DNA from: a virus
Taxonomy: Duplodnaviria > Heunggongvirae > Uroviricota > Caudoviricetes
Length of the DNA: 40,632 nucleotides
IMG/VR virus record: IMGVR_UViG_2541047846_000008
Span: 1 to 40,632 of that record
Reading direction: 5' to 3' (one strand)
Shown: in pieces, positions 5,582-40,256 of the stretch
Layout of the letters: the number at the start of each line of letters is the position of its first letter
How positions within the stretch are numbered: position 1 is the stretch's first letter
Position numbers and translations under genes: made by a program
The notes under the pieces: generated by a model
What the model saw: the letters and a program-made list of their open reading frames with translations, nothing else
Told to the model about the DNA's origin: nothing
Databases searched by the model: none

Positions 5582-6667
5582 TTACAGACACTTGACTACT
5601 GTTGAAACATCAGATTCTAGTGCTTCAATTTGTGCTCTATTAGCTTGGGTCGCCATACCATAGATAGTGTAACTCTTATGCTGCAGCCTACTTAAAGGGC
5701 ATCCCTCATGGTTTATTATTGCTGCAAGAGTATTACCATCTTTGACATTTTGAACTCTCTCGAAAGTAGCCACATTTGTGAACAGATGAGGATGTGTATT
5801 TAACAGGTCATCCGTGATTCTTTTGATCTCTTCTGCATGTGATTTGAATGCTTTTGCTGCATCACTTTCATTAGTTCTTGAGCGGTTTTGTACGAAAAGG
5901 TGTAGTTCAGGTAGTTCGATAAGGTTTTGCTTTGCTTCTTTGTTGAAATCTAAGAACATTTCATCTTGTTCTGACTTGTCAATAGACACTCCATAAATAA
6001 GTTTAACAAGGTTTTTTATTCCGCGAATTGATGCAGCATCGGCAGTGCAAGGGATAATTATTCTATTTGCCGCGACTACTCCCAATTCTGTGTAGCTGGC
6101 AAAACTTGGGTTACAATCAATAAAAAATGTTTTTGCTCTGTCAGAAATGTTTTTATCGGCTTCAAAAGATGCTATTAGATCTACCAGCAAAGATCGGCTT
6201 TTCTTCCATGCTTCTTTTACTGGGGATGAGCCAATGTGAGATATTAAGCGTGAACAGATATCAAGATCGACATCACCAGGAAGAATATATAAGTTCTCTG
6301 GCATTTTTGCATTAACATCATGGGCTCGTACAAAGTAAGAAGATTCATTTCCTAAACGAGACAAAGGAGATTTGCTAAAACGCTCCTTGATATAACCTGC
6401 GATTGTAACATTTCTGTCTCGCAATTTATTTAGATTTTCTTCCCCGGTACCATTGCCACCAAGAATAATTTCTGAAACGTTTGATTGAGGGCATGAGTCA
6501 ATAACCACAACATCTTGATCCGGATGAGATATAGCAAACTCAACGGCAAGATTATATGTAAGAAAAGTTTTTCCTACACCACCTTTGTTGTTCCATACTA
6601 AATATTTTGTATTGGTGGAAATCATATCTGCTACCCCATCTGTCGCTTCAGTACGTTCATTAATCAT
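5582..6667 (-). CDS. ParA/MinD-family P-loop ATPase with ~110-aa C-terminal extension; AT-rich moron next to repressor
   Basis: Deviant Walker A NNKGGVGKT near N-terminus, FIDCNPS and IIIPCTAD motifs; 361 aa; AT-rich; own terminator. Confidence 0.75.
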   Translation of the reverse strand: MINERTEATDGVADMISTNTKYLVWNNKGGVGKTFLTYNLAVEFAISHPDQDVVVIDSCPQSNVSEIILGGNGTGEENLNKLRDRNVTIAGYIKERFSKSPLSRLGNESSYFVRAHDVNAKMPENLYILPGDVDLDICSRLISHIGSSPVKEAWKKSRSLLVDLIASFEADKNISDRAKTFFIDCNPSFASYTELGVVAANRIIIPCTADAASIRGIKNLVKLIYGVSIDKSEQDEMFLDFNKEAKQNLIELPELHLFVQNRSRTNESDAAKAFKSHAEEIKRITDDLLNTHPHLFTNVATFERVQNVKDGNTLAAIINHEGCPLSRLQHKSYTIYGMATQANRAQIEALESDVSTVVKCL

Positions 6668-6901
6668 TATCGTATCCTGTTGTATAGAATTGTCTATTAT
6701 TTATGTTTTATTTTGGTTTTTTTTGTGTTAGTAACGCACCCAAAGATAACATATGGTCTTTATCTTTTCTTACTTAGGGTAACAGCTCAGTGTTAATCCA
6801 TTTTTATGGACCAATGTGCCAAATAAAATTTGTATAAAGATTTTCTATCCTTATCTTTTATCATCTGTGCTCGTTTGCTTTAACGATTGCTAGATGCCTA
6901 A

Positions 6902-7642
6902 TTAAAGTCGATTATATTTAATCGACTCATGAATCAGTGCCTTACCCATAACATAAAGCTGATCTTGCGACTTCTCATCAATGTACCATTTCTCATAGGC
7001 GGGGTTATCCGAAAGAACAGCTAGTTTGTTGCCTTGCATTTGTAGACGTTTAACATGGAAAGTCTTACCGTAAACGAAAGAGTAAACTCCATCAGTCTGG
7101 AAGTGGCGAACGGAAATGTCGACAAACAATCGATCCCCGGAAACAAGAGTTGGGGACATACTATCTCCATTTACCGTCATAACTTTTATATCATTCTGAG
7201 AACGGTTTCCGAAAAGAGAACGGGCATGTTCAGTTGTGAACTCAATGGCGTAGAGCACATCAACATAGTCTGAAAGCATATAGGTCCCAGGTCCTGCGCT
7301 AACGCTAAGATCCAAAACTTCTATCCTGTATACATCGGGCTTTGTTGGATTGGGGATGCTTGCCATTTCCTTACATTCCTCTCTATCTCCAACACCATAT
7401 TCTAGATATGAAGCTGATACTCCAAGAGCCAACGCAAGTTTACTCATGACAGAGACACGTGGCTTCGCTGCGCCGATTGTGTATCGACGAGCCATTTCAT
7501 ATGTAACGCCCACAAGACTTTTGAGTTGAGTGACAGAGATTCCTTTGATTGTCATCAATTCGTTTAGTCTCTTGGCGAAATCTGGATACTTCTGTTCTTC
7601 TACCATAGGTAGAAGATTACTCACATCACACGCGCTAGTCAT
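6902..7642 (-). CDS. CI-like prophage repressor (N-terminal HTH, C-terminal S24 LexA-like autopeptidase)
   Basis: HTH segment followed by VNGDSMSPTL (S24 catalytic Ser) and downstream Lys; divergent from cro; internal ATG start consistent with a leaderless transcript. Confidence 0.85.
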   Translation of the reverse strand: MTSACDVSNLLPMVEEQKYPDFAKRLNELMTIKGISVTQLKSLVGVTYEMARRYTIGAAKPRVSVMSKLALALGVSASYLEYGVGDREECKEMASIPNPTKPDVYRIEVLDLSVSAGPGTYMLSDYVDVLYAIEFTTEHARSLFGNRSQNDIKVMTVNGDSMSPTLVSGDRLFVDISVRHFQTDGVYSFVYGKTFHVKRLQMQGNKLAVLSDNPAYEKWYIDEKSQDQLYVMGKALIHESIKYNRL

Positions 7643-7644
7643 TT

Positions 7645-7680
7645 CTATTTTAAGTAGTTGCAATTTGCTATTTTAAGTAG
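7645..7680. promoter_or_regulatory. Operator region of the cI/cro switch: two copies of CTATTTTAAGTAG
   Basis: 13-bp partly palindromic direct repeats at about 7645..7657 and 7668..7680 between divergent cI and cro. Confidence 0.5.
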
Positions 7681-14351: not shown

Positions 14352-14389
14352 TTGCATTTTTCAAAAAATCTGGTTAGGATTTTCCTAAC
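14352..14389 (+). promoter_or_regulatory. Candidate late promoter (pR'-like) with adjacent hairpin (possible qut region)
   Basis: TTGCAT, 17-bp spacer, TAGGAT; overlaps perfect hairpin GTTAGGA-TTT-TCCTAAC. Confidence 0.4.
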
Positions 14390-14430
14390 GATGGGCTTTG
14401 TATGTCTGCCGTTAACGAAATCATAACAAA

Positions 14431-14451
14431 CCTCGCTTCGGCGGGGTTTTT
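14431..14451 (+). terminator. tR'-like Rho-independent terminator downstream of the late promoter
   Basis: CCTCGC-TTCG-GCGGGG stem with UUCG tetraloop followed by TTTTT. Confidence 0.6.
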
Positions 14452-14470
14452 GCTTTTCTGGAGGTCAATA

Positions 14471-14728
14471 ATGCAGGGCGAAAAGCAGCAGCCATATTTT
14501 TTTAACCCTGGTATGACTGTTGAACAGCTTGAAGACTGGCTGGAGCAGCAAAAGCTTCATCTAAGCCGCTATAACCGTCTGGTAAAAGAAAAAGCAGAGC
14601 TTGAAGAACGGCTCAGTGATATTTCTGTGGAAATTGAACGAATGTCTGCTGGTGGTTTTAACGGAAAGTTGAGTTTCCCCTGGGAGTCAAGTTCGCTTCT
14701 GAGAAATCATCAACAGGGTAGTGTTTGA
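14471..14728 (+). CDS. Small hypothetical protein (85 aa, coiled-coil-like) between tR' and holin
   Basis: Internal ATG with GGAGG RBS just after the terminator; the track ORF start at 14402 would overlap the terminator. Confidence 0.4.
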   Translation: MQGEKQQPYFFNPGMTVEQLEDWLEQQKLHLSRYNRLVKEKAELEERLSDISVEIERMSAGGFNGKLSFPWESSSLLRNHQQGSV

Positions 14729-14807: not shown

Positions 14808-15194
14808 ATGTCCGATCCGATTTCCGGTACTTGGCTGGCTGGTGGTGCCCTGACGGGTGCCAGTGTTTATGGACTGCTGACCGGAACTGATTACGGCGTT
14901 GTATTTGGCGCATTTGCAGGGGCTGTATTCTACATAGCAACAGCAGCAGATCTGAGTGCATCGCGCCGGCTGGCATATTTTATCGTGTCATATATTGCCG
15001 GGATTCTTTGCTCTGGGTTGGTTGGCTCCAAGCTGGCGAACTTGACCGGATACAGTGATAAACCTCTGGATGCTATTGGTGCCGTAATCGTCTCTGCTTT
15101 AGCCGTTAAAATCCTGACGTTCCTGAATAATCAGGATATCGGCTCGCTGGTGGCGCTCATAACGCGCCGGGGAGGTTCAGGTGGAGCTAAATGA
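14808..15194 (+). CDS. Putative holin (multi-pass membrane protein)
   Basis: 128 aa, Gly/Ala-rich hydrophobic segments; strong RBS; first gene of lysis cassette. Confidence 0.6.
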   Translation: MSDPISGTWLAGGALTGASVYGLLTGTDYGVVFGAFAGAVFYIATAADLSASRRLAYFIVSYIAGILCSGLVGSKLANLTGYSDKPLDAIGAVIVSALAVKILTFLNNQDIGSLVALITRRGGSGGAK

Positions 15195-15462
15195 CCCGAC
15201 AGCAACTATAAATGCGCTGTTATGTGCTTGTGTTGTTATTACTCTGATGTTTTATCGTCGTGGTGATTCGCGGCATCGTCCTTGGGTTTCACGTTTAGCC
15301 TGGTTGATTACTGTTACATACAGTGCTGTTCCGTTGGCCTATCTCTGTGGGATTTATCCCCATTCCTCATGGCCCATTATCGTGGCGAATACTATTTTTC
15401 TTTCCGTGCTGGTGGCCGTCAGAGGCAACGTTGCACGTCTGGTTGATCATCTGAGGCACTAA
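15181..15462 (+). CDS. Small membrane protein (holin or antiholin partner)
   Basis: 93 aa with hydrophobic helices; overlaps flanking lysis genes. Confidence 0.45.
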   Translation: MELNDPTATINALLCACVVITLMFYRRGDSRHRPWVSRLAWLITVTYSAVPLAYLCGIYPHSSWPIIVANTIFLSVLVAVRGNVARLVDHLRH

Positions 15463-16076
15463 TGAACCAACAATTATTTCAAAAGGCGGCTGGTATTAGC
15501 GCCGGGCTGGCTGTGCGCTGGTTTCCGCACATTGATGCGGCGATGAAGGAATTCGGCATTACAGCACCAGCGGATCAGGCGATGTTTATCGCTCAGGTAG
15601 GCCATGAGTCGATGGGGTTTAGCGCCGTAGTTGAAAATCTTAACTACACACCATCTGCGCTTGTGGCGACGTTCGGAAAGAGGATCACACAGCAGCAGGC
15701 TGATGCCCTTGGCAGAACATCCGGACATGCAGCTCGTCAGGATGCTATTGCCAATCTGGTGTATAGCAACCGACTGGGTAACAAAGCACCAGGTGATGGC
15801 TGGAAATATCGTGGTAGAGGATTAATTCAAATCACTGGCCTCCATAATTATCGCATCTGTGGCGCGGCGCTGAAGTTAGATCTGGTGACTTCACCTGAAC
15901 AACTGGAACAGGAACTACAGGCTGCGCGCTCAGCTGCATGGTTCTACACCTCTAAAGGCTGCATGATCTACGGTGCCGATATTAACCGTGTTACGCGCAT
16001 CATTAACGGCGGTCTGAACGGTATTGAGGATCGTAAGGTCCGATACAACAAGGCGCGGGCGGCGCTGCTGGTATGA
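15462..16076 (+). CDS. Endolysin (glycoside hydrolase family 19 / lysozyme-like)
   Basis: 204 aa; motifs FIAQVGHES and YRGRGLIQITG typical of GH19-type endolysins. Confidence 0.8.
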   Translation: MNQQLFQKAAGISAGLAVRWFPHIDAAMKEFGITAPADQAMFIAQVGHESMGFSAVVENLNYTPSALVATFGKRITQQQADALGRTSGHAARQDAIANLVYSNRLGNKAPGDGWKYRGRGLIQITGLHNYRICGAALKLDLVTSPEQLEQELQAARSAAWFYTSKGCMIYGADINRVTRIINGGLNGIEDRKVRYNKARAALLV

Positions 16077-16507
16077 AGATGAGTTATTGGGCGCTCATTT
16101 TAACGTTTATTGCTTGTGTCGCTGGTGGTCTTGTCTGGTCAGCGAATCACTATCATGGAAAGTTTCTGGAGGAGCAGAAGCGTGCTGATGCTGCGGAACA
16201 GCGAGCTGATTCTACTGAGGCTATCACCGCGAATGTTCTGCGTACTATGGCAATAACGAACATCATTCAGGAGGCGAATCAACATGCAAAACAGCAGATC
16301 GCACTGGAGTCACAGAGAACCCAGGAAGATATCAAAGTGGCTGTTGCGGATGATGATTGTGCTTCACGTCCTGTGCCTGCTGCCGCTGCTGACCGGTTGC
16401 GGAAGTACGCGAACAGTTTACGTAACAGTACCTCCAATTCCGCTTCCAGCTACTCTGACTTTGGAAACGCCAGTACCGCACATACCAGATACCCTGACCT
16501 ATGGTGA
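16073..16507 (+). CDS. Rz-like inner-membrane spanin (i-spanin)
   Basis: N-terminal TM helix then charged coiled-coil region; follows endolysin. Confidence 0.7.
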   Translation: MKMSYWALILTFIACVAGGLVWSANHYHGKFLEEQKRADAAEQRADSTEAITANVLRTMAITNIIQEANQHAKQQIALESQRTQEDIKVAVADDDCASRPVPAAAADRLRKYANSLRNSTSNSASSYSDFGNASTAHTRYPDLW

Positions 16508-16598
16508 CAGCCTGGAGTTGAATGTGAGTCTGTTGTCGGCGTTGGAACAGTGTAATTTTGATAAAGCGACAATAAAAAGTATTGATGCTAACAAGTAA
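16350..16598 (+). CDS. Rz1-like outer-membrane lipoprotein spanin (o-spanin), nested in and extending beyond Rz
   Basis: Alternate frame within Rz; signal peptide with lipobox LLTGC; Pro-rich mature region. Confidence 0.65.
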   Translation: MMIVLHVLCLLPLLTGCGSTRTVYVTVPPIPLPATLTLETPVPHIPDTLTYGDSLELNVSLLSALEQCNFDKATIKSIDANK

Positions 16599-16660
16599 AA
16601 GAGCCTGCACCTTTATAGAGATGATTCCATGTTAATATCGCTCCTCTAACGGGAGGCATT

Positions 16661-17152
16661 ATGATGGATTGGAATATGTGGTCTGCTATTGGGGCTTGTG
16701 GTTCGGCTATCGCGTCTTTTGGGGCGTTGTGTTATGCCCGTAAGGCGTTAAACACATGGAATAGACAGGAGCAATTTAAAGTAAAGTTAGAGTTTAAGAG
16801 AGCTTTACTTCAGTTGGAGGATGCCTTTGAGGCAATGCCTGATAATTGGAATTCCGTACAGTATAGAATAGCCAAAACATTTGCGTCTCAGAGGGGCAAC
16901 GATATATATAATGGAGTTGTTGAGGCTGAAAAACAGCTGTTTTATAAAAAACAAAACCTTAATTTAGCGTACGGACATTCCGTACAGGCATGGGTTTTGT
17001 GTGAAGAACTGTTTAAAGACAATACTATTCATGATGAATGGAAAGCTTTCAGAATTAGTTATGATAATTACATTCTGAATGGTGGGAACAAAAATGATTA
17101 TTTGCCAATGATAAAAAATATATATTCAAAAATTCCTGTGTTTAATGGTTGA
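16661..17152 (+). CDS. Membrane-anchored hypothetical protein (AT-rich moron between lysis and packaging)
   Basis: 163 aa; one N-terminal TM segment then soluble domain; GGGAGG RBS; AT-rich. Confidence 0.6.
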   Translation: MMDWNMWSAIGACGSAIASFGALCYARKALNTWNRQEQFKVKLEFKRALLQLEDAFEAMPDNWNSVQYRIAKTFASQRGNDIYNGVVEAEKQLFYKKQNLNLAYGHSVQAWVLCEELFKDNTIHDEWKAFRISYDNYILNGGNKNDYLPMIKNIYSKIPVFNG

Positions 17153-17200
17153 TTTCTATACGAAATGGACAATATGTTCCATCTTTTTTAGGGAAATTAT

Positions 17201-27397: not shown

Positions 27398-29222
27398 ATT
27401 TGAGCTTAAGGCGTTGATCACCGGTGTCGACAGGCTTTCTCCCGCGCTGTCGAAAATGCAAAAGAAAATCCGGGGATTTAAACGCCAGGCGGAAGAAGCG
27501 TCACAGGGTGGGCTGGCGCTTGGTGGCGGACTGGCAGCGGGTCTGACGCTTTCCCTGAAATCTTATGCCGATCAGGAAAACGCCGCCACCGGGCTGAAAG
27601 TCGCCATGATGGATGCGAACGGCGAGGTTGGAAAGAGCTTTCAGGACATCAATAAACTGGCTATTGGCCTGGGTAACCAGCTACCTGGTACAACGGCTGA
27701 TTTCCAGAACATGATGCAGATGCTGGTGCGTCAGGGGATCCCGGCAGAAAACATTCTGGGTGGTGTGGGTAAAGCGACAGCTTATCTTGCGGTACAACTG
27801 AAAAAAACACCGGAAGCGGCTGCTGAGTTTGCAGCAAAGATGCAGGATGCTACCGGAACGGCGTCAGAAGACATGATGGGGCTGTTCGACACTATCCAGA
27901 AGGCGTTTTATCTGGGCGTTGACGATACCAACATGTTGTCCTTCTTCACTAAAACCAGTTCTGTTCTGAAGATGGTGAACAAGGACGGTCTTCAGGCTGC
28001 GCAGAGCCTTGCCCCCATCAGCGTCATGATGGATCAGATGGGGATGAACGGGGAGTCGGCAGGTAATGCCCTGCGAAAAGTTATCCAGTCCGGATTAAGC
28101 GTTAAGAAAATCAGGGACGTTAATAAAGTTATGGCCCGCCAGAAACTCGGGGTACAGCTCGATTTTACTGACGGCAAAGGAAGTTTTGGCGGTCTTGATA
28201 ACATGTTCAGGCAACTGGCAAAGCTGCGAAAACTGACCGACGTTAAGCGAACAGGTGTACTTAAGGCAATATTTGGTGATGATGCCGAAACCCTTCAGGT
28301 GGTCAATGCACTAATCGATAAAGGAAAGGATGGCTACGATCAGATCCAGCAGAAGATGAATAAACAGGCCAGCCTGAATAAACGTGTTCAGGCACAGCTT
28401 GGTACGCTGTCCAACCTGTGGGAGGCAATGACAGGGACCGCAACTAACGGCCTTGCGGCTATTGGCGGCGCATTTTCTGGTGACGCTAAAAATATCACAC
28501 AATGGCTGGGGGAGTTGGGGGAGAAATTCACGAAGTTTGCGGATGAAAATCCCCGGGTTATTCGCGGCGTCGTCGGGCTTGCTGCCGGTCTTGCGATTCT
28601 GAAACTGGGATTGATGGGCGTGGGCAGTGCCATCAGTATTGTCAGCAGGATTATGTCGATGACGCCGATTGGCATGATTGCGACGGCGATTGCTCTGGCT
28701 GCGGGATTAATTATCACTAACTGGGATGTTGTCGGACCTTATTTTAAGAAGCTCTGGGAAACCATTGGTCCTTATTTTGAGGCTGGCTGGGAACTTCTGA
28801 AGAAAGTTTTTGCCTGGTCGCCGCTGGGAATGGTGATCAATAACTGGGGACCGGTTGTTAAGTGGTTTCAGGATATGTGGGACAAGCTGAAGCCAATTAT
28901 TGAGTGGTTTACCGACAGTTCCGGTGACACGGTCGATGCCATTAACTCTGCGCAGTGGGGCGCGGGTGCTTATGATGCTTATGGGACGGGAATACCGGCG
29001 CGGGGATACACACCTTATCCGGCGGTGGATCCGGCTCAGTCAAACAACGCCTCCGATGCCACAGGCTCGAATCCCTTCATGATTAACAAAGCTTCTGTGC
29101 CAAAAGTTGATGGTGAGATCAAGGTATCTTTTGTGAATTCGCCTCCGGGTATGCGGGTTATGGAAACGCGATCCAGCGGTTTTGATGTCAGCCATGATGT
29201 TGGCTATACGTGGTTCAGGTAG
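27390..29222 (+). CDS. Tail tape measure protein
   Basis: 610 aa, helical N-terminal half, Gly-rich hydrophobic central TM-like region; conserved position. Confidence 0.85.
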   Translation: MAEFELKALITGVDRLSPALSKMQKKIRGFKRQAEEASQGGLALGGGLAAGLTLSLKSYADQENAATGLKVAMMDANGEVGKSFQDINKLAIGLGNQLPGTTADFQNMMQMLVRQGIPAENILGGVGKATAYLAVQLKKTPEAAAEFAAKMQDATGTASEDMMGLFDTIQKAFYLGVDDTNMLSFFTKTSSVLKMVNKDGLQAAQSLAPISVMMDQMGMNGESAGNALRKVIQSGLSVKKIRDVNKVMARQKLGVQLDFTDGKGSFGGLDNMFRQLAKLRKLTDVKRTGVLKAIFGDDAETLQVVNALIDKGKDGYDQIQQKMNKQASLNKRVQAQLGTLSNLWEAMTGTATNGLAAIGGAFSGDAKNITQWLGELGEKFTKFADENPRVIRGVVGLAAGLAILKLGLMGVGSAISIVSRIMSMTPIGMIATAIALAAGLIITNWDVVGPYFKKLWETIGPYFEAGWELLKKVFAWSPLGMVINNWGPVVKWFQDMWDKLKPIIEWFTDSSGDTVDAINSAQWGAGAYDAYGTGIPARGYTPYPAVDPAQSNNASDATGSNPFMINKASVPKVDGEIKVSFVNSPPGMRVMETRSSGFDVSHDVGYTWFR

Positions 29223-29295: not shown

Positions 29296-29321
29296 CCTTA
29301 CAAATGATTGAAGGGATGATT

Positions 29322-29816
29322 ATGCGTATCTTTGTTTTTTTTATATCTGCACTTTTATCTTTTAACTTGGCTGCGGAAGAGTGTAAGTTCAGCTTTAATG
29401 AGTCAGAATTAATCTCTTCTATAGGTATTGCACCAGTTAAGCAAGAGATAATAAAGGATGAAGGAATAACTAAGCGGCAATATGAATTCAGAAGAGAATT
29501 ATCTTCTGAAGAAATGCTTAGTGATGACGCTGATGAAAAATATGAGCCGCAGTTTTATATATCTGTTTATAATCCATCATGCCCACAAAAGGTTATTGTT
29601 TGGTTTTTCAAAGACAATAAAAACACAATGGATTTAAGTAATGAGGTCCTTGCTGGTAGAGCGTTCAAGTATTTAACTGGTGTTAATGAAAGTATTTTTG
29701 AAAATAAAATGAAAAAGTTTTTAAAGGTACAGTCATTTGAATCTTTTGATGAAAGGACAGATTCTAAATTTATAAAGAGTGGTGATATTTATTCCATTGA
29801 TGTTCAACTCAGATAG
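29322..29816 (+). CDS. Secreted/periplasmic hypothetical protein (AT-rich moron inside the tail operon)
   Basis: Signal-peptide-like N-terminus MRIFVFFISALLSFNLAAEE; GAAGGG RBS; AT-rich; own promoter-like and terminator-like elements (track ORF starts 29304). Confidence 0.6.
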   Translation: MRIFVFFISALLSFNLAAEECKFSFNESELISSIGIAPVKQEIIKDEGITKRQYEFRRELSSEEMLSDDADEKYEPQFYISVYNPSCPQKVIVWFFKDNKNTMDLSNEVLAGRAFKYLTGVNESIFENKMKKFLKVQSFESFDERTDSKFIKSGDIYSIDVQLR

Positions 29817-29906: not shown

Positions 29907-31235
29907 ATGACGTGGAAAGACAGGCTTCAGGATGCGTCATTTCGCGGCGTACCGTTTAAGGTTGAAGAAGAAAGTGCGGGAACCGGTCGCCGTGTGGAAA
30001 CACACGAATATCCGAACCGCGACAAGCCCTATACCGAAGATCTGGGAAAAGTCACTTTCCGCCCGTCCATCACAGCTTATGTGGTGGGAGATGACTGCTT
30101 TGACCAGCGCGATCGCCTGATTGAAGCGCTGAATAAACCCGGTCCCGGCACGCTTGTCCACCCGACATATGGTGAGCTGAAAGTCTGTGTTGACGGGGAA
30201 GTTCGGGTCAGCACATCGAAAAGTGAAGGGCGTATTGTCCGCTTTGACCTGAAGTTTGTCGAAGCAGGAGAACTCTCTTACCCCACATCAGGTGCGGCGA
30301 CGGCGCAAACGCTGATGTCATCCTGTTCTGCACTGGATGACTGCATCAGTGACAGCTTCAGCGGTTTCAGTATCGATGGTGTGGCGGATTTCGTGCAGAA
30401 CGACGTCGTCGGTAATGCCAGCACAATGCTTGGGTATGTTTCTGATGCGATGAAAGTGGTGGATTCTGCCGTATCGGATGCCGCCAGGCTGTTGCAGGGG
30501 GATATCTCGGTACTTCTGCCGCCGCCATCGTCAGGCAAAAATTTCGTTGAGCAGGTGCAGAAAATGTGGCGTACCGGGAAACGCCTTTATGGTAACGCCA
30601 GCGACCTGGTCACCATGATCAAAACGCTTTCCGGTGTCAGCCTCGGCAGCGATCTGCAACCGCGCGGCGTCTGGAAAACGGACAGTAAAACCACCGCCAC
30701 GGCGACGCAGCAGCGTAACGTGGTTGCCAGCACCCTTCGTACGACCGCAATCAGCGAAGCGGCGTATGCCGTCACCCGATTGCCTGCGCCAACAATTTCT
30801 GCGGTGATGCAGAATGCCGCAGTGGGGCAGGCAACAACACCCGCGCAGAGCACTGGCTGGCCTTCCGTCACGCATCCGGCACTGAACAATGCACCGGCGG
30901 TGAAAAACACGGTTGACCTGCCGACGTGGGAAGAACTGACTGACATTCGCGACACACTGAATACGGCAATTGATAAGGAGTTGTCCCGTACAACCAGTGA
31001 TGCGCTGTTTCTGGCGCTGCGCCGGGTGAAAGCAGATCTGAATGCGGATATCAACACGCGCCTTGAACAGTCTGCACGGATCATTCAGCGCACGCCGGAT
31101 GAGGTTTTACCCGCGCTGGTGCTGGCGGCGACCTGGTTTGATAACGCGGCGCGTGACGCGGACATTATCCGGCGTAATGCCATTACACATCCCGGCTTTG
31201 TGCCGGTGATCCCTCTGAAGGTGCCAGTGCAATGA
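29907..31235 (+). CDS. Mu gpN-like DNA circularisation protein (tail component)
   Basis: 442 aa; N-terminal region typical of Mu N-like proteins; follows tape measure. Confidence 0.75.
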   Translation: MTWKDRLQDASFRGVPFKVEEESAGTGRRVETHEYPNRDKPYTEDLGKVTFRPSITAYVVGDDCFDQRDRLIEALNKPGPGTLVHPTYGELKVCVDGEVRVSTSKSEGRIVRFDLKFVEAGELSYPTSGAATAQTLMSSCSALDDCISDSFSGFSIDGVADFVQNDVVGNASTMLGYVSDAMKVVDSAVSDAARLLQGDISVLLPPPSSGKNFVEQVQKMWRTGKRLYGNASDLVTMIKTLSGVSLGSDLQPRGVWKTDSKTTATATQQRNVVASTLRTTAISEAAYAVTRLPAPTISAVMQNAAVGQATTPAQSTGWPSVTHPALNNAPAVKNTVDLPTWEELTDIRDTLNTAIDKELSRTTSDALFLALRRVKADLNADINTRLEQSARIIQRTPDEVLPALVLAATWFDNAARDADIIRRNAITHPGFVPVIPLKVPVQ

Positions 31236-37015: not shown

Positions 37016-37579
37016 ATGATTTACGGGTATGTTCGTGTATCAACAAATCATCAGGATACAGAGTTGCAACGTCTTGCACTTGAGTCAGCTGGCTGTGAGC
37101 GAATTTATGAAGAATATGCCAGTGGCAGAACAGCTAATCGCCCTGTGTTAAAGGAATTAATTACGGTGATGAAAAGTGGAGATGAGTTGATTGTCTGGAA
37201 GTTAGATCGGATAGGGAGAAATGTGCTGCATGCGCTATTGATGTTTCAAAATCTGCACGAAAAAGGTGTTAATTTTCGGAGTATTACAGATGGCGTAGAC
37301 CTGAAAACAGCAAGTGGTCGCTATAATTTCCGTAATATTCTTTCTGCTGCGCAGTATGAATCTGATTTGAATAGCGAGCGAACTTTAGCTGGTTTGGCTA
37401 TTGCCAGATCCAAAGGCCGGATTGGTGGGCGTAGACCGAAGTTTAGCGACGAGCAGTGGCAACAGATGGGAGCGCTCATAGCGGCAGGGAAATCACGGCG
37501 TTATGTTGCACGTATCTATAACGTTGGGCTATCAACCCTATATAAACGATTTCCTGTTACTGGCATTCAAACGAAATAA
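37016..37579 (+). CDS. pin: Serine DNA invertase (Pin/Gin/Hin family)
   Basis: N-terminal YVRVSTxxQ catalytic Ser motif and C-terminal HTH; 187 aa; adjacent to inverted crossover sites. Confidence 0.9.
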   Translation: MIYGYVRVSTNHQDTELQRLALESAGCERIYEEYASGRTANRPVLKELITVMKSGDELIVWKLDRIGRNVLHALLMFQNLHEKGVNFRSITDGVDLKTASGRYNFRNILSAAQYESDLNSERTLAGLAIARSKGRIGGRRPKFSDEQWQQMGALIAAGKSRRYVARIYNVGLSTLYKRFPVTGIQTK

Positions 37580-37619
37580 TTTAAAAGCAATTTAAAGAGT
37601 TATTTGTCTAATGTTGGAA

Positions 37620-37655
37620 GCCGCAGCCACGTCGTATGCAAGAACGTGCTGCGGC
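37620..37655. terminator. Terminator-like hairpin between convergent pin and dinI-like genes
   Basis: Long imperfect GC-rich inverted repeat GCCGCAGCCACG ... CGTGCTGCGGC; no strong U-tract. Confidence 0.35.
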
Positions 37656-37722
37656 TGGCTGGCGAACTTTCGATAGTGCGAGTATTGAATGATTTCCAGC
37701 CGTTACCGATTTTACGTGTTAA

Positions 37723-37971
37723 TTAGTGAACAAACCACTCGTCAGCAGATTCCCAGGTATCTTTCAGAGTCTCCTGAACAAAAGTTTTTGCAGAATCCTT
37801 ATCTGCGGTGCGTGTAACAGAAAGGCCATCGTTGCTGGTGGCTTTTACGATCACCTCTACATCGTCATAACGTTTACTGATGCGTCGGGTTAATTCTTCC
37901 TTTAACGCATCCACAGCACCGGTTGGCATTTTAGTCATTTTTTCTTTGGCTATGCAGATTTCAATACGCAT
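37723..37971 (-). CDS. dinI: DinI-like protein (predicted RecA/SOS modulator)
   Basis: 82 aa; MRIEI.IAK and C-terminal TWESADEWF motifs as in DinI; two LexA boxes upstream. Confidence 0.8.
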
Positions 37972-37986
37972 AAAAGTCCCTCTATA

Positions 37987-38030
37987 CTGTGTTTGTATAC
38001 AGTATTATTTTTAACTGTATAGATAAACAG
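37987..38030. promoter_or_regulatory. Two tandem LexA (SOS) boxes upstream of the dinI-like gene
   Basis: taCTGTgtttgtatACAGta (37987..38002) and aaCTGTatagataaACAGtg (38015..38030); both CTGT-N8-ACAG. Confidence 0.65.
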
Positions 38031-38032
38031 TG

Positions 38033-39130
38033 TCAAGAGGCCTTATTTCTGCTCCTTTGGAGCTCTTCAAAACGATTATGTAAAGATTTCGGATACAGTT
38101 CGGTATATACCTGCCATAGCACGTTTAATGAACGATGCCCTGTAACCTGGGCGACTTCCTCAATACTAAAACCAGCCTCAAATAAGCGACTTGCCCCTTC
38201 TCTACGCAAATCATGGTATCGCAGATCTTTAATACCTAATTTGCTTCTTACCCTCTGGAATCCCGCAGTAACAGAAGTGCTGTTATATGGAAAAATGAAT
38301 TCTGATTTTTTGGGTTGTCGTTGGACGATATCCCAGGCTTCCCCAAGCAAGGCTACTTTCATATGGTTGCCTTCCTTTTTACGTGGATCTTTCCTGTCTC
38401 TTACGAGTATGGATTTTTGTTCCTGATCGAGATCCTCCCATCGTAATCGGCATACTTCACCGATTCGCATACATGACCACACAGAAAATTTGAGGATATC
38501 AACGAACGGAATTTTTGAGCATTTATGTGTAGATCGTTGTTGAAGACCTTCAATGAGCATGTCCAGTTCATCAGATGCCGGTCTACGATTACGACGATTT
38601 GATTTACCAATTAAACCAAGTTTAAGTAGATATGGACGAGCGGCTTTTGCTGGGTTTGATGTGTAATTAATTCCATATACAGGTTTGGCAGCATCCAGAA
38701 CACTGCCAAGATAACTAACATCGTGGCTAACTGTAGCTGGACCTGCACCAGCGTTGTTTCTTAGCCTGCAATGTTCAATTACGTCATTTTCTGTCAGTTC
38801 AGATAGTTTGAGCGCGGAGACGTCACTATCCATAAGCAGTTCCAGCACATATCTTTTAGTACGGCCTGCTTTACCTCCGGCATTTGGGTCATTTAAATAT
38901 TTGTGTAGTAAGTCACGGACTGTAAGTCCGTCAACTGCATTTGATGATGGAATGCCATATAGATCTAATTCCATCACTTTCTGTGTGCCCCATGTTTTGG
39001 CATGAGCATGTTTAGGGAATGTTTTACTTTCCCTGTAAGTGATAACACCTTTTTCTTTGATAATCACATTACAGCGATAGCGTGGTGTGCCATCGGATTT
39101 TAGTCGTTTCTCTATGTTATAGTATGCCAT
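38033..39130 (-). CDS. int: Tyrosine integrase (DusA-targeting type)
   Basis: 365 aa; C-terminal catalytic region with RxxR ... HDLRR ... Y pattern; adjacent to dusA. Confidence 0.9.
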   Translation of the reverse strand: MAYYNIEKRLKSDGTPRYRCNVIIKEKGVITYRESKTFPKHAHAKTWGTQKVMELDLYGIPSSNAVDGLTVRDLLHKYLNDPNAGGKAGRTKRYVLELLMDSDVSALKLSELTENDVIEHCRLRNNAGAGPATVSHDVSYLGSVLDAAKPVYGINYTSNPAKAARPYLLKLGLIGKSNRRNRRPASDELDMLIEGLQQRSTHKCSKIPFVDILKFSVWSCMRIGEVCRLRWEDLDQEQKSILVRDRKDPRKKEGNHMKVALLGEAWDIVQRQPKKSEFIFPYNSTSVTAGFQRVRSKLGIKDLRYHDLRREGASRLFEAGFSIEEVAQVTGHRSLNVLWQVYTELYPKSLHNRFEELQRSRNKAS

Positions 39131-39218
39131 TACACGACCTCGTTATTTCGGGTTCCCATAAAACGTGGGAACCTGTGCGGGAACCTAACGCGAGAAAAAT
39201 AGCCTGAAATGTTCAAAA

Positions 39219-40256
39219 ATGCACGATAATCATGAAGCACAAAAAATTAATCAAACCAGCGTGATGCCTGAAAAAACTGGTGTTTACTGGAATTCTCGGT
39301 TTAGCATTGCTCCTATGCTTGACTGGACGGACAGACATTGCCGTTATTTCCTGCGTCTGCTTTCCCGCAATACGTTGCTGTATACCGAAATGGTGACCAC
39401 AGGGGCGATTATTCACGGTAAAGGTGATTACCTGGCGTACAGTGAAGAAGAACATCCGGTAGCGTTGCAACTCGGGGGTAGCGATCCGGCGGCGCTGGCA
39501 CAGTGTGCGAAGCTGGCAGAAGCGCGCGGATATGATGAGATCAACCTGAATGTCGGCTGCCCGTCTGACCGGGTGCAGAACGGCATGTTTGGTGCGTGTC
39601 TGATGGGTAATGCGCAGCTGGTTGCCGACTGCGTGAAAGCGATGCGCGATGTGGTGTCGATTCCGGTGACGGTGAAAACGCGTATTGGCATCGATGATCA
39701 GGACAGCTATGAATTTCTCTGCGATTTCATCAACACCGTTTCCGGCAAAGGTGAGTGTGAGATGTTCATCATCCACGCACGTAAAGCCTGGCTTTCTGGG
39801 TTAAGTCCGAAAGAAAACCGTGAGATCCCGCCGCTCGATTATCCGCGTGTGTATCAACTGAAGCGTGACTTTCCGCATCTGACGATGTCGATTAACGGTG
39901 GTATCAAGTCGCTGGAAGAAGCTAAAGCGCATTTGCAACATATGGATGGCGTGATGGTCGGGCGCGAGGCGTATCAGAATCCGGGGATTCTGGCGGCGGT
40001 AGACCGAGAGATTTTTGGTTCCTCGGATACCGATGCCGATCCGGTGGCGGTAGTGCGCGCCATGTATCCGTACATTGAGCGTGAACTCAGCCAGGGTACG
40101 TATCTCGGCCATATTACCCGGCATATGCTGGGCTTGTTCCAGGGTATTCCTGGCGCGCGGCAGTGGCGGCGTTATTTAAGTGAAAATGCCCATAAAGCGG
40201 GTGCAGACATTAATGTGCTGGAACACGCGCTCAAACTGGTGGCGGATAAGCGTTAA
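39219..40256 (+). CDS. dusA: tRNA-dihydrouridine synthase A
   Basis: 345 aa; conserved Dus motifs; followed by pspG as in E. coli. Confidence 0.9.

What the first reader, a model, noticed from the sequence alone, without database searches (positions are those of the whole stretch)
16661..17152. AT-rich membrane-anchored moron between the lysis cassette and the packaging genes
A 163-aa protein with one N-terminal TM helix and a soluble domain sits at the slot where lambda carries bor, with its own strong RBS and AT-rich composition. Small membrane-anchored proteins at such slots are often superinfection-exclusion or abortive-infection factors.
Basis: inference. Interest (0 to 1): 0.55.

Follow-up and report, generated by a model that had tools for sequence, protein, structure and literature searches.

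The report
Membrane-anchored prophage moron after lysis genes
This is a real, optional add-on gene ("moron") of a lambda-like E. coli prophage that encodes a small inner-membrane protein of an uncharacterised family; it is a plausible but unproven phage-exclusion factor, and an ordinary kind of feature.

Summary
The 163-aa ORF at 16661-17152 is real and under purifying selection (dN/dS 0.14-0.34). It has 36.8% GC against 48-57% in its neighbours. It lies in a 613-bp segment (16586-17198) that is replaced by 62 bp in closely related prophages. The flanking lysis and HNH/terminase genes occur in 1393 of 5426 complete E. coli genomes. This gene occurs in 9 of them and a 24%-identical paralogue in 28. 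Other genomes have an empty slot or unrelated cargo, so the gene is dispensable for lysis and packaging.

The protein belongs to phrog_6169 (unknown function), a small family restricted to Enterobacterales. In all 16 contexts examined it is the first gene after the spanins, whatever the holin, endolysin or terminase type.

The predicted protein is a single-pass anchor, N-terminus out and C-terminus in, with a conserved stripe of small residues in the membrane helix. A cytoplasmic four-helix bundle follows (AlphaFold pLDDT 92). No specific structural or sequence relative was found in PADLOC, Pfam, PDB, SieA, SieB, gp15 or Bor.

An invariant extended -10-like motif lies upstream and a weak hairpin with a T-run lies downstream, which fits an independent transcription unit.

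Moron status is well supported. A role in phage exclusion or abortive infection is only inferred.

The parts
16586..17198 (.). Variable cassette (moron). Similarity to empty-slot prophages ends inside the last codons of Rz1 and resumes 2 nt before the HNH start codon.
   Evidence: Alignment with the empty-slot locus L001, which has 62 bp in place of these 613 bp. The cassette is AT-rich.
16630..16638 (+). Extended -10-like promoter motif TGTTAATAT, 31 nt upstream of the ATG. It sits inside a 24-nt block (16615-16638) that is almost invariant among four alleles.
   Evidence: The upstream region has 93% column identity, while the coding sequences are 77-89% identical with dS 0.45-0.66. Motif scan. 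Function as a promoter is inferred, not shown.
16640..16657 (+). Possible hairpin GCUCCUC-UAAC-GGGAGGC that pairs the Shine-Dalgarno sequence (GGGAGG, 16651-16656).
   Evidence: RNA folds. The hairpin is weak here (-6.5 kcal/mol, not better than shuffles) and stronger in several relatives (L025, L012, L015, L009). The substitutions seen among alleles keep or improve pairing.
16661..17152 (+). Coding sequence, 163 aa, family phrog_6169. It encodes a single-pass inner-membrane protein, predicted N-terminus out and C-terminus in, with a cytoplasmic four-helix bundle.
16676..16738 (+). Membrane helix (residues 6-26), with a conserved stripe of small residues at positions 8, 12, 15, 19, 22, 26, 29 and 32.
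   Evidence: Hydropathy. In the 40-member alignment, 87-100% of residues at these positions are small; flanking charges are negative on the N side and positive on the C side.
16739..17149 (+). Cytoplasmic helical-bundle domain (residues 27-163). Conserved positions are W33, Q36, E37, K40, F45, K46, P60, W111, E115, W127 and Y137, plus a C-terminal hydrophobic F/V/I-rich motif.
   Evidence: Alignments A2 and A3. AlphaFold2 model with mean pLDDT 92.1 and pTM 0.79.
17165..17189 (+). Weak terminator-like element: ATGGA-CAATATGT-TCCAT followed by CTTTTTT.
   Evidence: The fold is not better than shuffles in this allele. A hairpin at the same place has a different sequence in the Citrobacter and Salmonella/FT130 alleles, and distant relatives have clear terminators.
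14808..16598 (+). Upstream context, the lysis cassette: holins 14808-15194 and 15181-15462, GH19 endolysin 15462-16076, Rz 16073-16507, Rz1/LysC 16284-16598.
   Evidence: Pfam and PHROG matches.
17201..19909 (+). Downstream context, the packaging genes: HNH endonuclease 17201-17551, P27-family small terminase 17668-18162, large terminase 18176-19909.
   Evidence: Pfam and PHROG matches. RefSeq annotation of near-identical prophages.

Best explanation
The segment 16586-17198 is a moron: a horizontally acquired, self-contained accessory cassette in the variable slot between the spanin genes and the HNH/terminase genes of a lambdoid E. coli prophage.

It encodes a 163-aa protein of the uncharacterised family phrog_6169. 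The protein inserts into the inner membrane through one N-terminal helix, with the N-terminus in the periplasm and the C-terminus in the cytoplasm. The helix carries a conserved face of small residues suited to tight helix-helix packing. It continues into a cytoplasmic four-helix bundle with a conserved juxtamembrane W-x2-QE-x2-K...FK patch.

I infer that the gene is transcribed in the lysogen from its own extended -10 promoter. Q-antiterminated late transcription may also read through it.

I infer that the protein acts at the inner membrane on something generic rather than on this phage's own lysis or packaging proteins. The most likely role is to protect the lysogen against other phages. It could do so by interfering with genome entry across the inner membrane (superinfection exclusion). 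Alternatively it could act as a membrane-tethered sensor and effector that aborts infection.

Shown here: gene reality, cassette boundaries, sporadic distribution, composition, family, position and predicted fold. Inferred: topology, promoter use and the anti-phage role.
For: Accessory status:
- The flanks are in 1393 of 5426 E. coli genomes. The gene is in 9 and a paralogue in 28.
- In a systematic sample of 23 prophages with both flanks, 7 had an empty slot and the rest carried at least 8 unrelated cargos on either strand.
- The cassette boundaries are precise.

Foreign composition: GC is 36.8% against about 50%. All relatives are 36-40% GC in flanks of 44-58%.

Real, constrained gene: dN/dS is 0.14-0.34, 4-6 times more relaxed than the neighbouring HNH gene.

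Independence from any particular lysis or packaging partner:
- The 87%- and 70%-identical alleles sit next to different holin families and a different endolysin.
- Distant members sit next to four endolysin types and four terminase types.

Own regulatory signals:
- TGTTAATAT is invariant within a conserved upstream block.
- Promoter-like motifs lie 30-60 nt upstream in most lineages, against a 10% background.
- Terminators lie downstream in relatives.

Architecture:
- In 40 members the N side has K+R 29 and D+E 104; the C side has K+R 221 and D+E 91.
- The membrane helix has a small-residue stripe.
- The AlphaFold2 model is confident.

Precedent: prophage morons encoding small inner-membrane proteins that block genome entry include HK97 gp15 (PMC3594210) and P22 SieA (PMC10883804). 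A membrane-tethered, cytoplasm-facing defence protein acting at the injection site is SNIPE (bioRxiv 10.1101/2025.11.03.685801).
Against: No functional evidence of any kind.
- No match to 5027 PADLOC defence models, for this protein or its relatives.
- No profile similarity to SieA, SieB, gp15 or Bor.
- Structural neighbours are only generic helical bundles.
- The promoter lacks a -35 element, and the window's terminator is weak and not better than shuffles.
- The gene is always co-oriented with the late operon and always directly follows the lysis genes (16 of 16 contexts). That pattern would also fit a late lytic role.
- A 135-aa cytoplasmic domain is not obviously needed to block entry from the periplasmic side.
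Confidence: 0.4

Rival explanations
1. Late-phase accessory of the lytic cycle. The protein is made mainly from the Q-antiterminated late transcript, together with holin, endolysin and spanins. It tunes events at the inner membrane late in infection, such as lysis timing, protection against premature lysis or membrane-acting host abortive systems, or exclusion of secondary infection during the late period.
For: In 16 of 16 distinct contexts the gene is the first gene after the spanins and on the late-operon strand. Other cargos in the same E. coli slot can be on the opposite strand. The family was found only in lambdoid prophages, never on plasmids. In some relatives the downstream spacer is too short for a terminator (L010, 31 nt).
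Against: The gene is missing from about 97% of E. coli prophages with nearly identical lysis and packaging genes. Close alleles are paired with unrelated holins and endolysins, so a specific holin or endolysin partner is unlikely. Positional constancy is expected anyway, because lambdoid mosaic recombination preserves gene order; bor and stx also keep their slots (established knowledge). Conserved promoter-like and terminator-like signals point to independent expression.
Confidence: 0.2
2. Lysogenic-conversion factor unrelated to phages. The membrane-tethered bundle modulates a host inner-membrane protein (a transporter, sensor kinase or protease). This would change host physiology, stress tolerance or colonisation, as Bor and Lom do for lambda lysogens.
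Against: The structural matches are generic, with under 15% identity and no conserved ligand or phosphotransfer residues identified. The family is confined to prophages, and no chromosomal homologues were found outside them. No virulence or stress-related domain was detected.
Confidence: 0.2
3. Essential or conserved component of lysis or of HNH/terminase-dependent cos packaging.
For: Only its position between the two modules.
Against: Prophages with 93-94% identical flanks lack it entirely: 26 nt lie between the Rz1 stop and the HNH start in L001. It also occurs next to four different terminase systems.
Confidence: 0.02
4. Chance ORF in an AT-rich spacer, not a gene.
For: None beyond its low GC.
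Against: Full-length homologues at 21-87% identity exist in at least ten enterobacterial genera. dN/dS is below 0.35. The co-evolution-driven AlphaFold2 model is confident. The PHROG match has E = 1e-63.
Confidence: 0.01

Closest known systems
phrog_6169 (PHROGs v4, unknown function)
   Same: Full-length HMM match, E = 1.3e-63, covering 162 of 163 residues. The 145-aa E. coli paralogue and the Serratia members match the same PHROG.
   Different: Nothing differs. This is the family, but it has no assigned function, so membership explains nothing about mechanism.
HK97 gp15 moron (superinfection exclusion; Cumby et al. 2012, reviewed in PMC3594210)
   Same: An AT-rich moron of an HK97-like prophage (HNH plus P27-type terminase) that encodes a small inner-membrane protein inside a late operon and on the same strand.
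   Different: gp15 is 62 aa, YebO-like, and sits between tail genes. There is no profile similarity. The protein here has a 135-aa cytoplasmic bundle.
P22 SieA (inner-membrane superinfection-exclusion protein, PMC10883804)
   Same: Similar size (162-164 aa), prophage-encoded, in the inner membrane, and with its own promoter. SieA also exists as types less than 30% identical to each other.
   Different: SieA is predicted to have three membrane helices and lies elsewhere in the genome, on the opposite strand. hhalign gives a probability of 0.5%.
Lambda bor (moron in the Rz-cos slot)
   Same: Same map slot, directly after Rz/Rz1. It is an accessory gene expressed in lysogens (PMC3594210).
   Different: Bor is a 97-aa outer-membrane lipoprotein encoded on the opposite strand. 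There is no similarity. The family here has no conserved lipobox cysteine.
SNIPE, a membrane-bound nuclease acting at the phage injection site (bioRxiv 10.1101/2025.11.03.685801)
   Same: The concept only: a defence protein held at the inner membrane facing the cytoplasm, placed where phage genomes enter.
   Different: SNIPE carries a nuclease domain. No catalytic domain is detectable here. No homology was tested or claimed.
Pfam DUF4760 (label that UniRef gives to two relatives)
   Same: UniRef names the Salmonella and Yersinia clusters 'DUF4760 domain-containing protein'.
   Different: hmmscan against Pfam-A gave no DUF4760 hit, even at E <= 10, for the window protein, the labelled proteins or 31 family members.

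Membership tests
Moron (Juhala/Hendrix definition, as summarised in PMC3594210) | Present in some closely related phages and absent in others, as an obvious addition between conserved genes | tested here: met
   613 bp here against 62 bp in empty-slot prophages with 93-94% identical flanks. The gene is in 9 of 1393 E. coli genomes that carry the flanks.
Moron (Juhala/Hendrix definition, as summarised in PMC3594210) | Base composition different from surrounding genes | tested here: met
   36.8% GC against 48-57% in neighbours. The same holds in all relatives.
Moron (Juhala/Hendrix definition, as summarised in PMC3594210) | Own promoter | tested here: inconclusive
   An invariant extended -10-like TGTTAATAT lies 31 nt upstream in a conserved block. 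There is no -35 element, and the consensus scan did not list it. Relatives have 10-of-12 sigma-70 matches at -55 to -58. No transcript data.
Moron (Juhala/Hendrix definition, as summarised in PMC3594210) | Own terminator | tested here: inconclusive
   A weak 5-bp hairpin plus T6 at 17165-17189, no better than shuffles. Terminators are clear in L012, L018, L009 and the Citrobacter allele.
Moron (Juhala/Hendrix definition, as summarised in PMC3594210) | Expressed from the repressed prophage | not testable with these tools
   Needs RNA-seq or 5' RACE of a lysogen.
phrog_6169 | Full-length match to the family HMM | tested here: met
   E = 1.3e-63, residues 1-162 on profile positions 4-164 of 165.
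Pfam DUF4760 (PF15956) | Match to the Pfam HMM above the gathering score | tested here: not met
   No hit, even at E <= 10, for the window protein, the UniRef-labelled relatives or 31 members.
Known anti-phage defence families (PADLOC-DB 2.0) | Match to any defence-protein HMM | tested here: not met
   No families for the window protein at E <= 1, nor for four relatives at E <= 0.01.
P22 SieA / SieB superinfection-exclusion proteins | Sequence or profile homology; three membrane helices for SieA | tested here: not met
   hhalign probability 0.5% and 0.1%. There is one membrane helix here.
HK97 gp15 / YebO family | Sequence or profile homology | tested here: not met
   hhalign probability 0.1%.
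Lambda Bor lipoprotein family | Homology, plus a lipoprotein signal peptide with a conserved lipobox cysteine | tested here: not met
   hhalign probability 0.4%. The n-region has no positive charge, and Cys13 is not conserved in the family.
Superinfection exclusion or abortive infection (functional class) | Reduces productive infection by other phages when expressed alone | not testable with these tools
   Needs phage challenge of a strain that expresses the cassette.

The most novel reading that the evidence does not exclude
phrog_6169 is a previously unrecognised single-protein anti-phage system carried by lambdoid prophages across Enterobacterales. Its small-residue membrane helix docks onto the channel that incoming phages build in the inner membrane (tape-measure or ejection proteins, or the host permease they use). 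Its cytoplasmic four-helix bundle then blocks genome entry or triggers an abortive response. Divergent alleles in the same slot (24% identity within E. coli) would give different phage specificities.
Probability: 0.3. Interest if true: 0.55.

Novelty: new member of a known kind. Interest (0 to 1): 0.33.

Why it matters
If the family proves to exclude phages, it would add a compact, single-gene, membrane-level defence. The gene is easy to spot because it always follows the spanins in lambdoid prophages of Escherichia, Salmonella, Citrobacter, Yersinia, Serratia and related genera. Its natural allelic series would be suited to mapping specificity. The spanin-terminase slot would also be marked as a cargo hotspot worth mining alongside the known Q-holin slot. 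If it does not exclude phages, it remains one more uncharacterised moron, and the finding is ordinary.

Tried and rejected
- Pfam, NCBIfam and PADLOC scans of the protein and its relatives gave nothing above noise. The UniRef 'DUF4760' label could not be reproduced.
- A profile search of PDB sequences gave nothing.
- The first AlphaFold run, with 3 sequences, was useless (pLDDT 46). The 40-sequence run was good.
- An alignment-based homologous-protein search added nothing new.
- tblastn against plasmids found no match. Against 50,697 phage records it found only Salmonella phage 118970_sal3.
- Literature searches for DUF4760, and for membrane-anchored morons at this slot, found no study of this family.
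- hhalign against SieA, SieB, gp15 and Bor was negative.
- I considered a signal-peptide or lipoprotein reading of the N-terminus (IGAC at residues 10-13). I rejected it because there is no positive n-region, the cysteine is not conserved, and the charges are strongly positive after the helix.
- I considered a holin- or terminase-specific partner and rejected it, because close alleles pair with unrelated holins and distant ones with four terminase types.
- Other cargos of the same slot matched no PADLOC or Pfam family. The slot therefore cannot yet be called a defence hotspot.

Full report
**Observation.** The ORF exists exactly as described: 16661..17152 on the + strand, 163 aa.
- It is markedly AT-rich, with 36.8% GC and 35% GC3. 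The window average is 50%, the lysis genes are 47-52%, and the HNH, TerS and TerL genes are 54-60%.
- Upstream lie two holins (14808-15194 and 15181-15462), a GH19 endolysin (15462-16076), and the nested spanins Rz (16073-16507) and Rz1/LysC (16284-16598).
- Downstream lie an HNH endonuclease (17201-17551), a P27-family small terminase (17668-18162), the large terminase (18176-19909) and the portal gene.
- This is the map position that bor occupies in lambda, directly after Rz/Rz1.
- A GGGAGG Shine-Dalgarno sequence lies 4 nt before the first ATG and 7 nt before the second.
- The N-terminal hydrophobic segment is weak in this allele (Kyte-Doolittle 1.42 over 19 residues). It is unambiguous in the family (1.4-2.7 in 40 members).

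**The gene is real.**
- It has full-length homologues.
- Between the four closest alleles (E. coli window; Citrobacter 87% aa; Salmonella and E. coli FT130 about 70% aa), dN/dS is 0.14-0.34. That is purifying selection, but 4-6 times more relaxed than the adjacent HNH gene at 0.05-0.08.

**It is an optional cassette in a variable slot.**
- A 2.2-kb query spanning the gene and both flanks finds the flanks in 1393 of 5426 complete E. coli genomes. Only 8 of those cover 80% or more of the query.
- The gene itself is in 9 genomes: 3 at 99% identity or more, and 6 carrying an allele about 78% identical.
- Alignment with an empty-slot prophage places the breakpoints at 16586, inside the last codons of Rz1, and at 17198, 2 nt before the HNH ATG. 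The window has 613 bp where the empty allele has 62 bp.
- A systematic sample down the hit list contained 23 prophages with both flanks. Seven had an empty slot. The others carried at least eight different cargos:
  - a 168-aa protein;
  - two gene pairs;
  - a 124-aa protein on the opposite strand;
  - GrlR-family and YodC-family proteins;
  - a peptidase;
  - a 145-aa protein.
- HK97 has a KilA-N gene in this slot and P22 has rha and small ORFs.

**Family.**
- Pfam, NCBIfam and PADLOC give nothing.
- PHROGs gives a full-length match to phrog_6169, unknown function, E = 1.3e-63.
- An exhaustive HMMER search of 1.84 billion representative proteins found only 45 hits.
- All named members are from Enterobacterales: Escherichia, Shigella, Salmonella, Citrobacter, Leclercia, Pantoea, Serratia, Enterobacter, Yersinia and Klebsiella aerogenes.
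- The 145-aa cargo found at the same slot in 28 other E. coli genomes is a 24%-identical member of the same PHROG. The slot thus holds divergent alleles of one family.
- UniRef labels two clusters 'DUF4760', but hmmscan against Pfam-A gives no such hit, even at E <= 10.

**Position is invariant.** In all 16 distinct contexts I could read, the gene is the first gene after the spanins, on the late-operon strand, and upstream of the terminase. This holds regardless of what surrounds it:
- Holin: Phage_holin_8 plus 3_7, 2_1, 3_1, 3_3, and unassigned types.
- Endolysin: GH19, GH24, GH108 and M15.
- Spanin type varies as well.
- Packaging system: HNH plus P27 TerS, Terminase_2 with Terminase_6, Terminase_2 with Terminase_3, and lambda-like Nu1/GpA.
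- Close alleles (87% and 70% identity) sit beside unrelated holins. This argues against a specific holin, endolysin or terminase partner.
- No member was found on plasmids. Only one deposited phage record carries one: 118970_sal3, at the same slot.
- Constant position does not prove a functional link to lysis, because order-preserving mosaic recombination keeps lambdoid morons in their slots, as with bor and stx. That last point rests on established knowledge and was not tested here.

**Regulatory signals.**
- The 100 nt upstream have 93% column identity among four alleles whose coding sequences have dS of 0.45-0.66.
- A 24-nt block (16615-16638) is almost invariant and ends in TGTTAATAT, an extended -10-like motif 31 nt before the ATG. 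No -35 element is present, and the consensus scan did not list the site.
- In the other lineages, 10-of-12 sigma-70 matches or extended -10 motifs lie 39-58 nt upstream (L012, L015, L018, L021). Overall 7 of 9 lineages have a promoter-like motif within 150 nt. Random 150-nt windows of the same loci score about 10%.
- Downstream, the window has only a weak hairpin plus T6 (17165-17189), no better than shuffles.
- A hairpin of different sequence occupies the same place in the other alleles. Clear terminators follow the gene in L012, L018 and L009.
- The Shine-Dalgarno sequence can pair with an upstream pyrimidine stretch. This is weak here and stronger in L025, L012, L015 and L009. I treat it as a lead only.

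**Protein architecture.**
- With a 40-sequence alignment, AlphaFold2 gives a confident model (pLDDT 92.1, pTM 0.79). One long helix (residues 3-58) contains the membrane segment and continues into a helical bundle, with further helices at 65-76, 85-117, 121-140 and 148-156.
- Across 40 members, the residues before the membrane helix carry K+R 29 against D+E 104. The 20 residues after it carry K+R 221 against D+E 91. By the positive-inside rule the protein is N-terminus out and C-terminus in, so the bundle is cytoplasmic. This is an inference.
- Positions 8, 12, 15, 19, 22, 26, 29 and 32 are small residues (G, A, S, T or C) in 87-100% of members. They form a continuous stripe along one face of the membrane helix. 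I read this as a helix-packing interface, either for self-association or for docking to another membrane protein.
- Conserved cytoplasmic positions are W33, Q36, E37, K40, F45, K46, P60, W111, E115, W127 and Y137.
- Foldseek against PDB and BFVD finds nothing with E < 0.08.
- Profile comparison with P22 SieA and SieB, HK97 gp15 and lambda Bor is negative.

**Interpretation.** Moron status is well supported on three of the defining criteria: sporadic presence, foreign composition and discrete boundaries. It is plausibly supported on two more (own promoter and own terminator). Expression in the lysogen is untested.

On function, the data exclude an essential lysis or packaging role and make a module-specific partner unlikely. 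The target is then either the host or foreign phages at the inner membrane.

Prophage morons that encode small inner-membrane proteins and have been tested often block genome entry, as with HK97 gp15 (PMC3594210) and P22 SieA (PMC10883804). Membrane-tethered, cytoplasm-facing defence proteins acting at the injection site also exist (SNIPE, bioRxiv 10.1101/2025.11.03.685801).

I therefore rank phage exclusion or abortive infection first, at confidence about 0.4. A late lytic accessory role follows at 0.2, supported by the strict co-orientation and adjacency to the lysis genes. A phage-unrelated lysogenic-conversion role is also at 0.2. None of these has direct evidence.

**Novelty and verdict.** This is a new, uncharacterised member of a familiar kind of element, belonging to a family already catalogued as phrog_6169. 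Its structural reading is essentially right, except that the soluble domain is predicted to be cytoplasmic. Its functional suggestion remains a reasonable but untested guess. Interest is modest: the finding is cheap to test experimentally, but a specialist would not find it surprising.

Noticed in passing
window 29304-29816 (+): A second AT-rich (36-40% GC) accessory ORF of 170 aa with an N-terminal signal-peptide-like sequence. It sits between the tape-measure gene (27390-29222) and the DNA-circulation gene (29907-31235). It matches phrog_8976 (unknown function) and has no Pfam or PADLOC hit. It looks like a moron in the tail module, at a slot comparable to HK97 gene 15.
   Followed up: partly
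window 16640-16657; L012 5974-5999; L009 5975-5996; L015 5968-5999; L025 736-755: In several family members the Shine-Dalgarno sequence is paired in a hairpin with an upstream pyrimidine stretch. Fold z-scores are -2.3 to -3.3 in L025, L012 and L015, but the hairpin is not significant in the window. This may be translational damping or a thermosensor-like control.
   Followed up: partly
window 16560-16598 and the matching parts of L025, L026, L029: The last ~12 codons of Rz1 (…DKATIKSIDANK*) travel with the cassette and are conserved among four alleles, even though their upstream lysis genes differ (GH19 against GH24-type endolysin, different holins). The recombination joint therefore lies inside the spanin gene.
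   Followed up: partly
L026-L028 (Salmonella), L021, L023: The slot between the Q antiterminator and the holin in related prophages carries known or candidate defence genes on the opposite strand: a KAP-family NTPase, Kiwa KwaA/KwaB and Abi_alpha. These prophages therefore load defence cargo at a second hotspot.
   Followed up: no
window 14373-14449 and 14402-14728: A strong terminator-like hairpin (14428-14449, 9-bp stem plus T-run) lies just downstream of the Q gene and is probably the tR'-type late terminator. It overlaps the 5' end of a 108-aa ORF. That ORF's PHROG match (phrog_3501, unknown function) starts only at residue 24, so its true start is probably downstream.
   Followed up: no
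window 5582-7663 (-): A ParA-like ATPase (361 aa; AAA_31/CbiA; phrog_164) sits directly beside the LexA/S24-type cI repressor (6902-7663), in the most AT-rich part of the window (33-38% GC). It has no PADLOC hit.
   Followed up: partly
window 37016-40256: The right end of the prophage has three features: a serine invertase (37016-37579) next to the tail-fibre genes, a tyrosine integrase (38033-39130, - strand), and directly beyond it a Dus-family dihydrouridine synthase gene (39219-40256). The last suggests integration next to a host dus gene. The tail module is Mu-like and contractile (sheath gene at 25127-26623).
   Followed up: partly
E. coli hits H45, H46, H61 (GrlR family); H47 (YodC family plus peptidase); H52, H54: Other occupants of the same Rz1-HNH slot include GrlR-family regulators and YodC-family proteins. 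In two prophages the slot holds 380-560 bp of extra DNA with no annotated gene. None of the hypothetical cargos I read (L003, L006, L007, L008) matches Pfam or PADLOC.
   Followed up: partly
Salmonella phage 118970_sal3 (NC_031940.1): This deposited 'phage' record is 77 kb and shows two places matching family member P0050. It may be a concatenate or carry a duplication.
   Followed up: no
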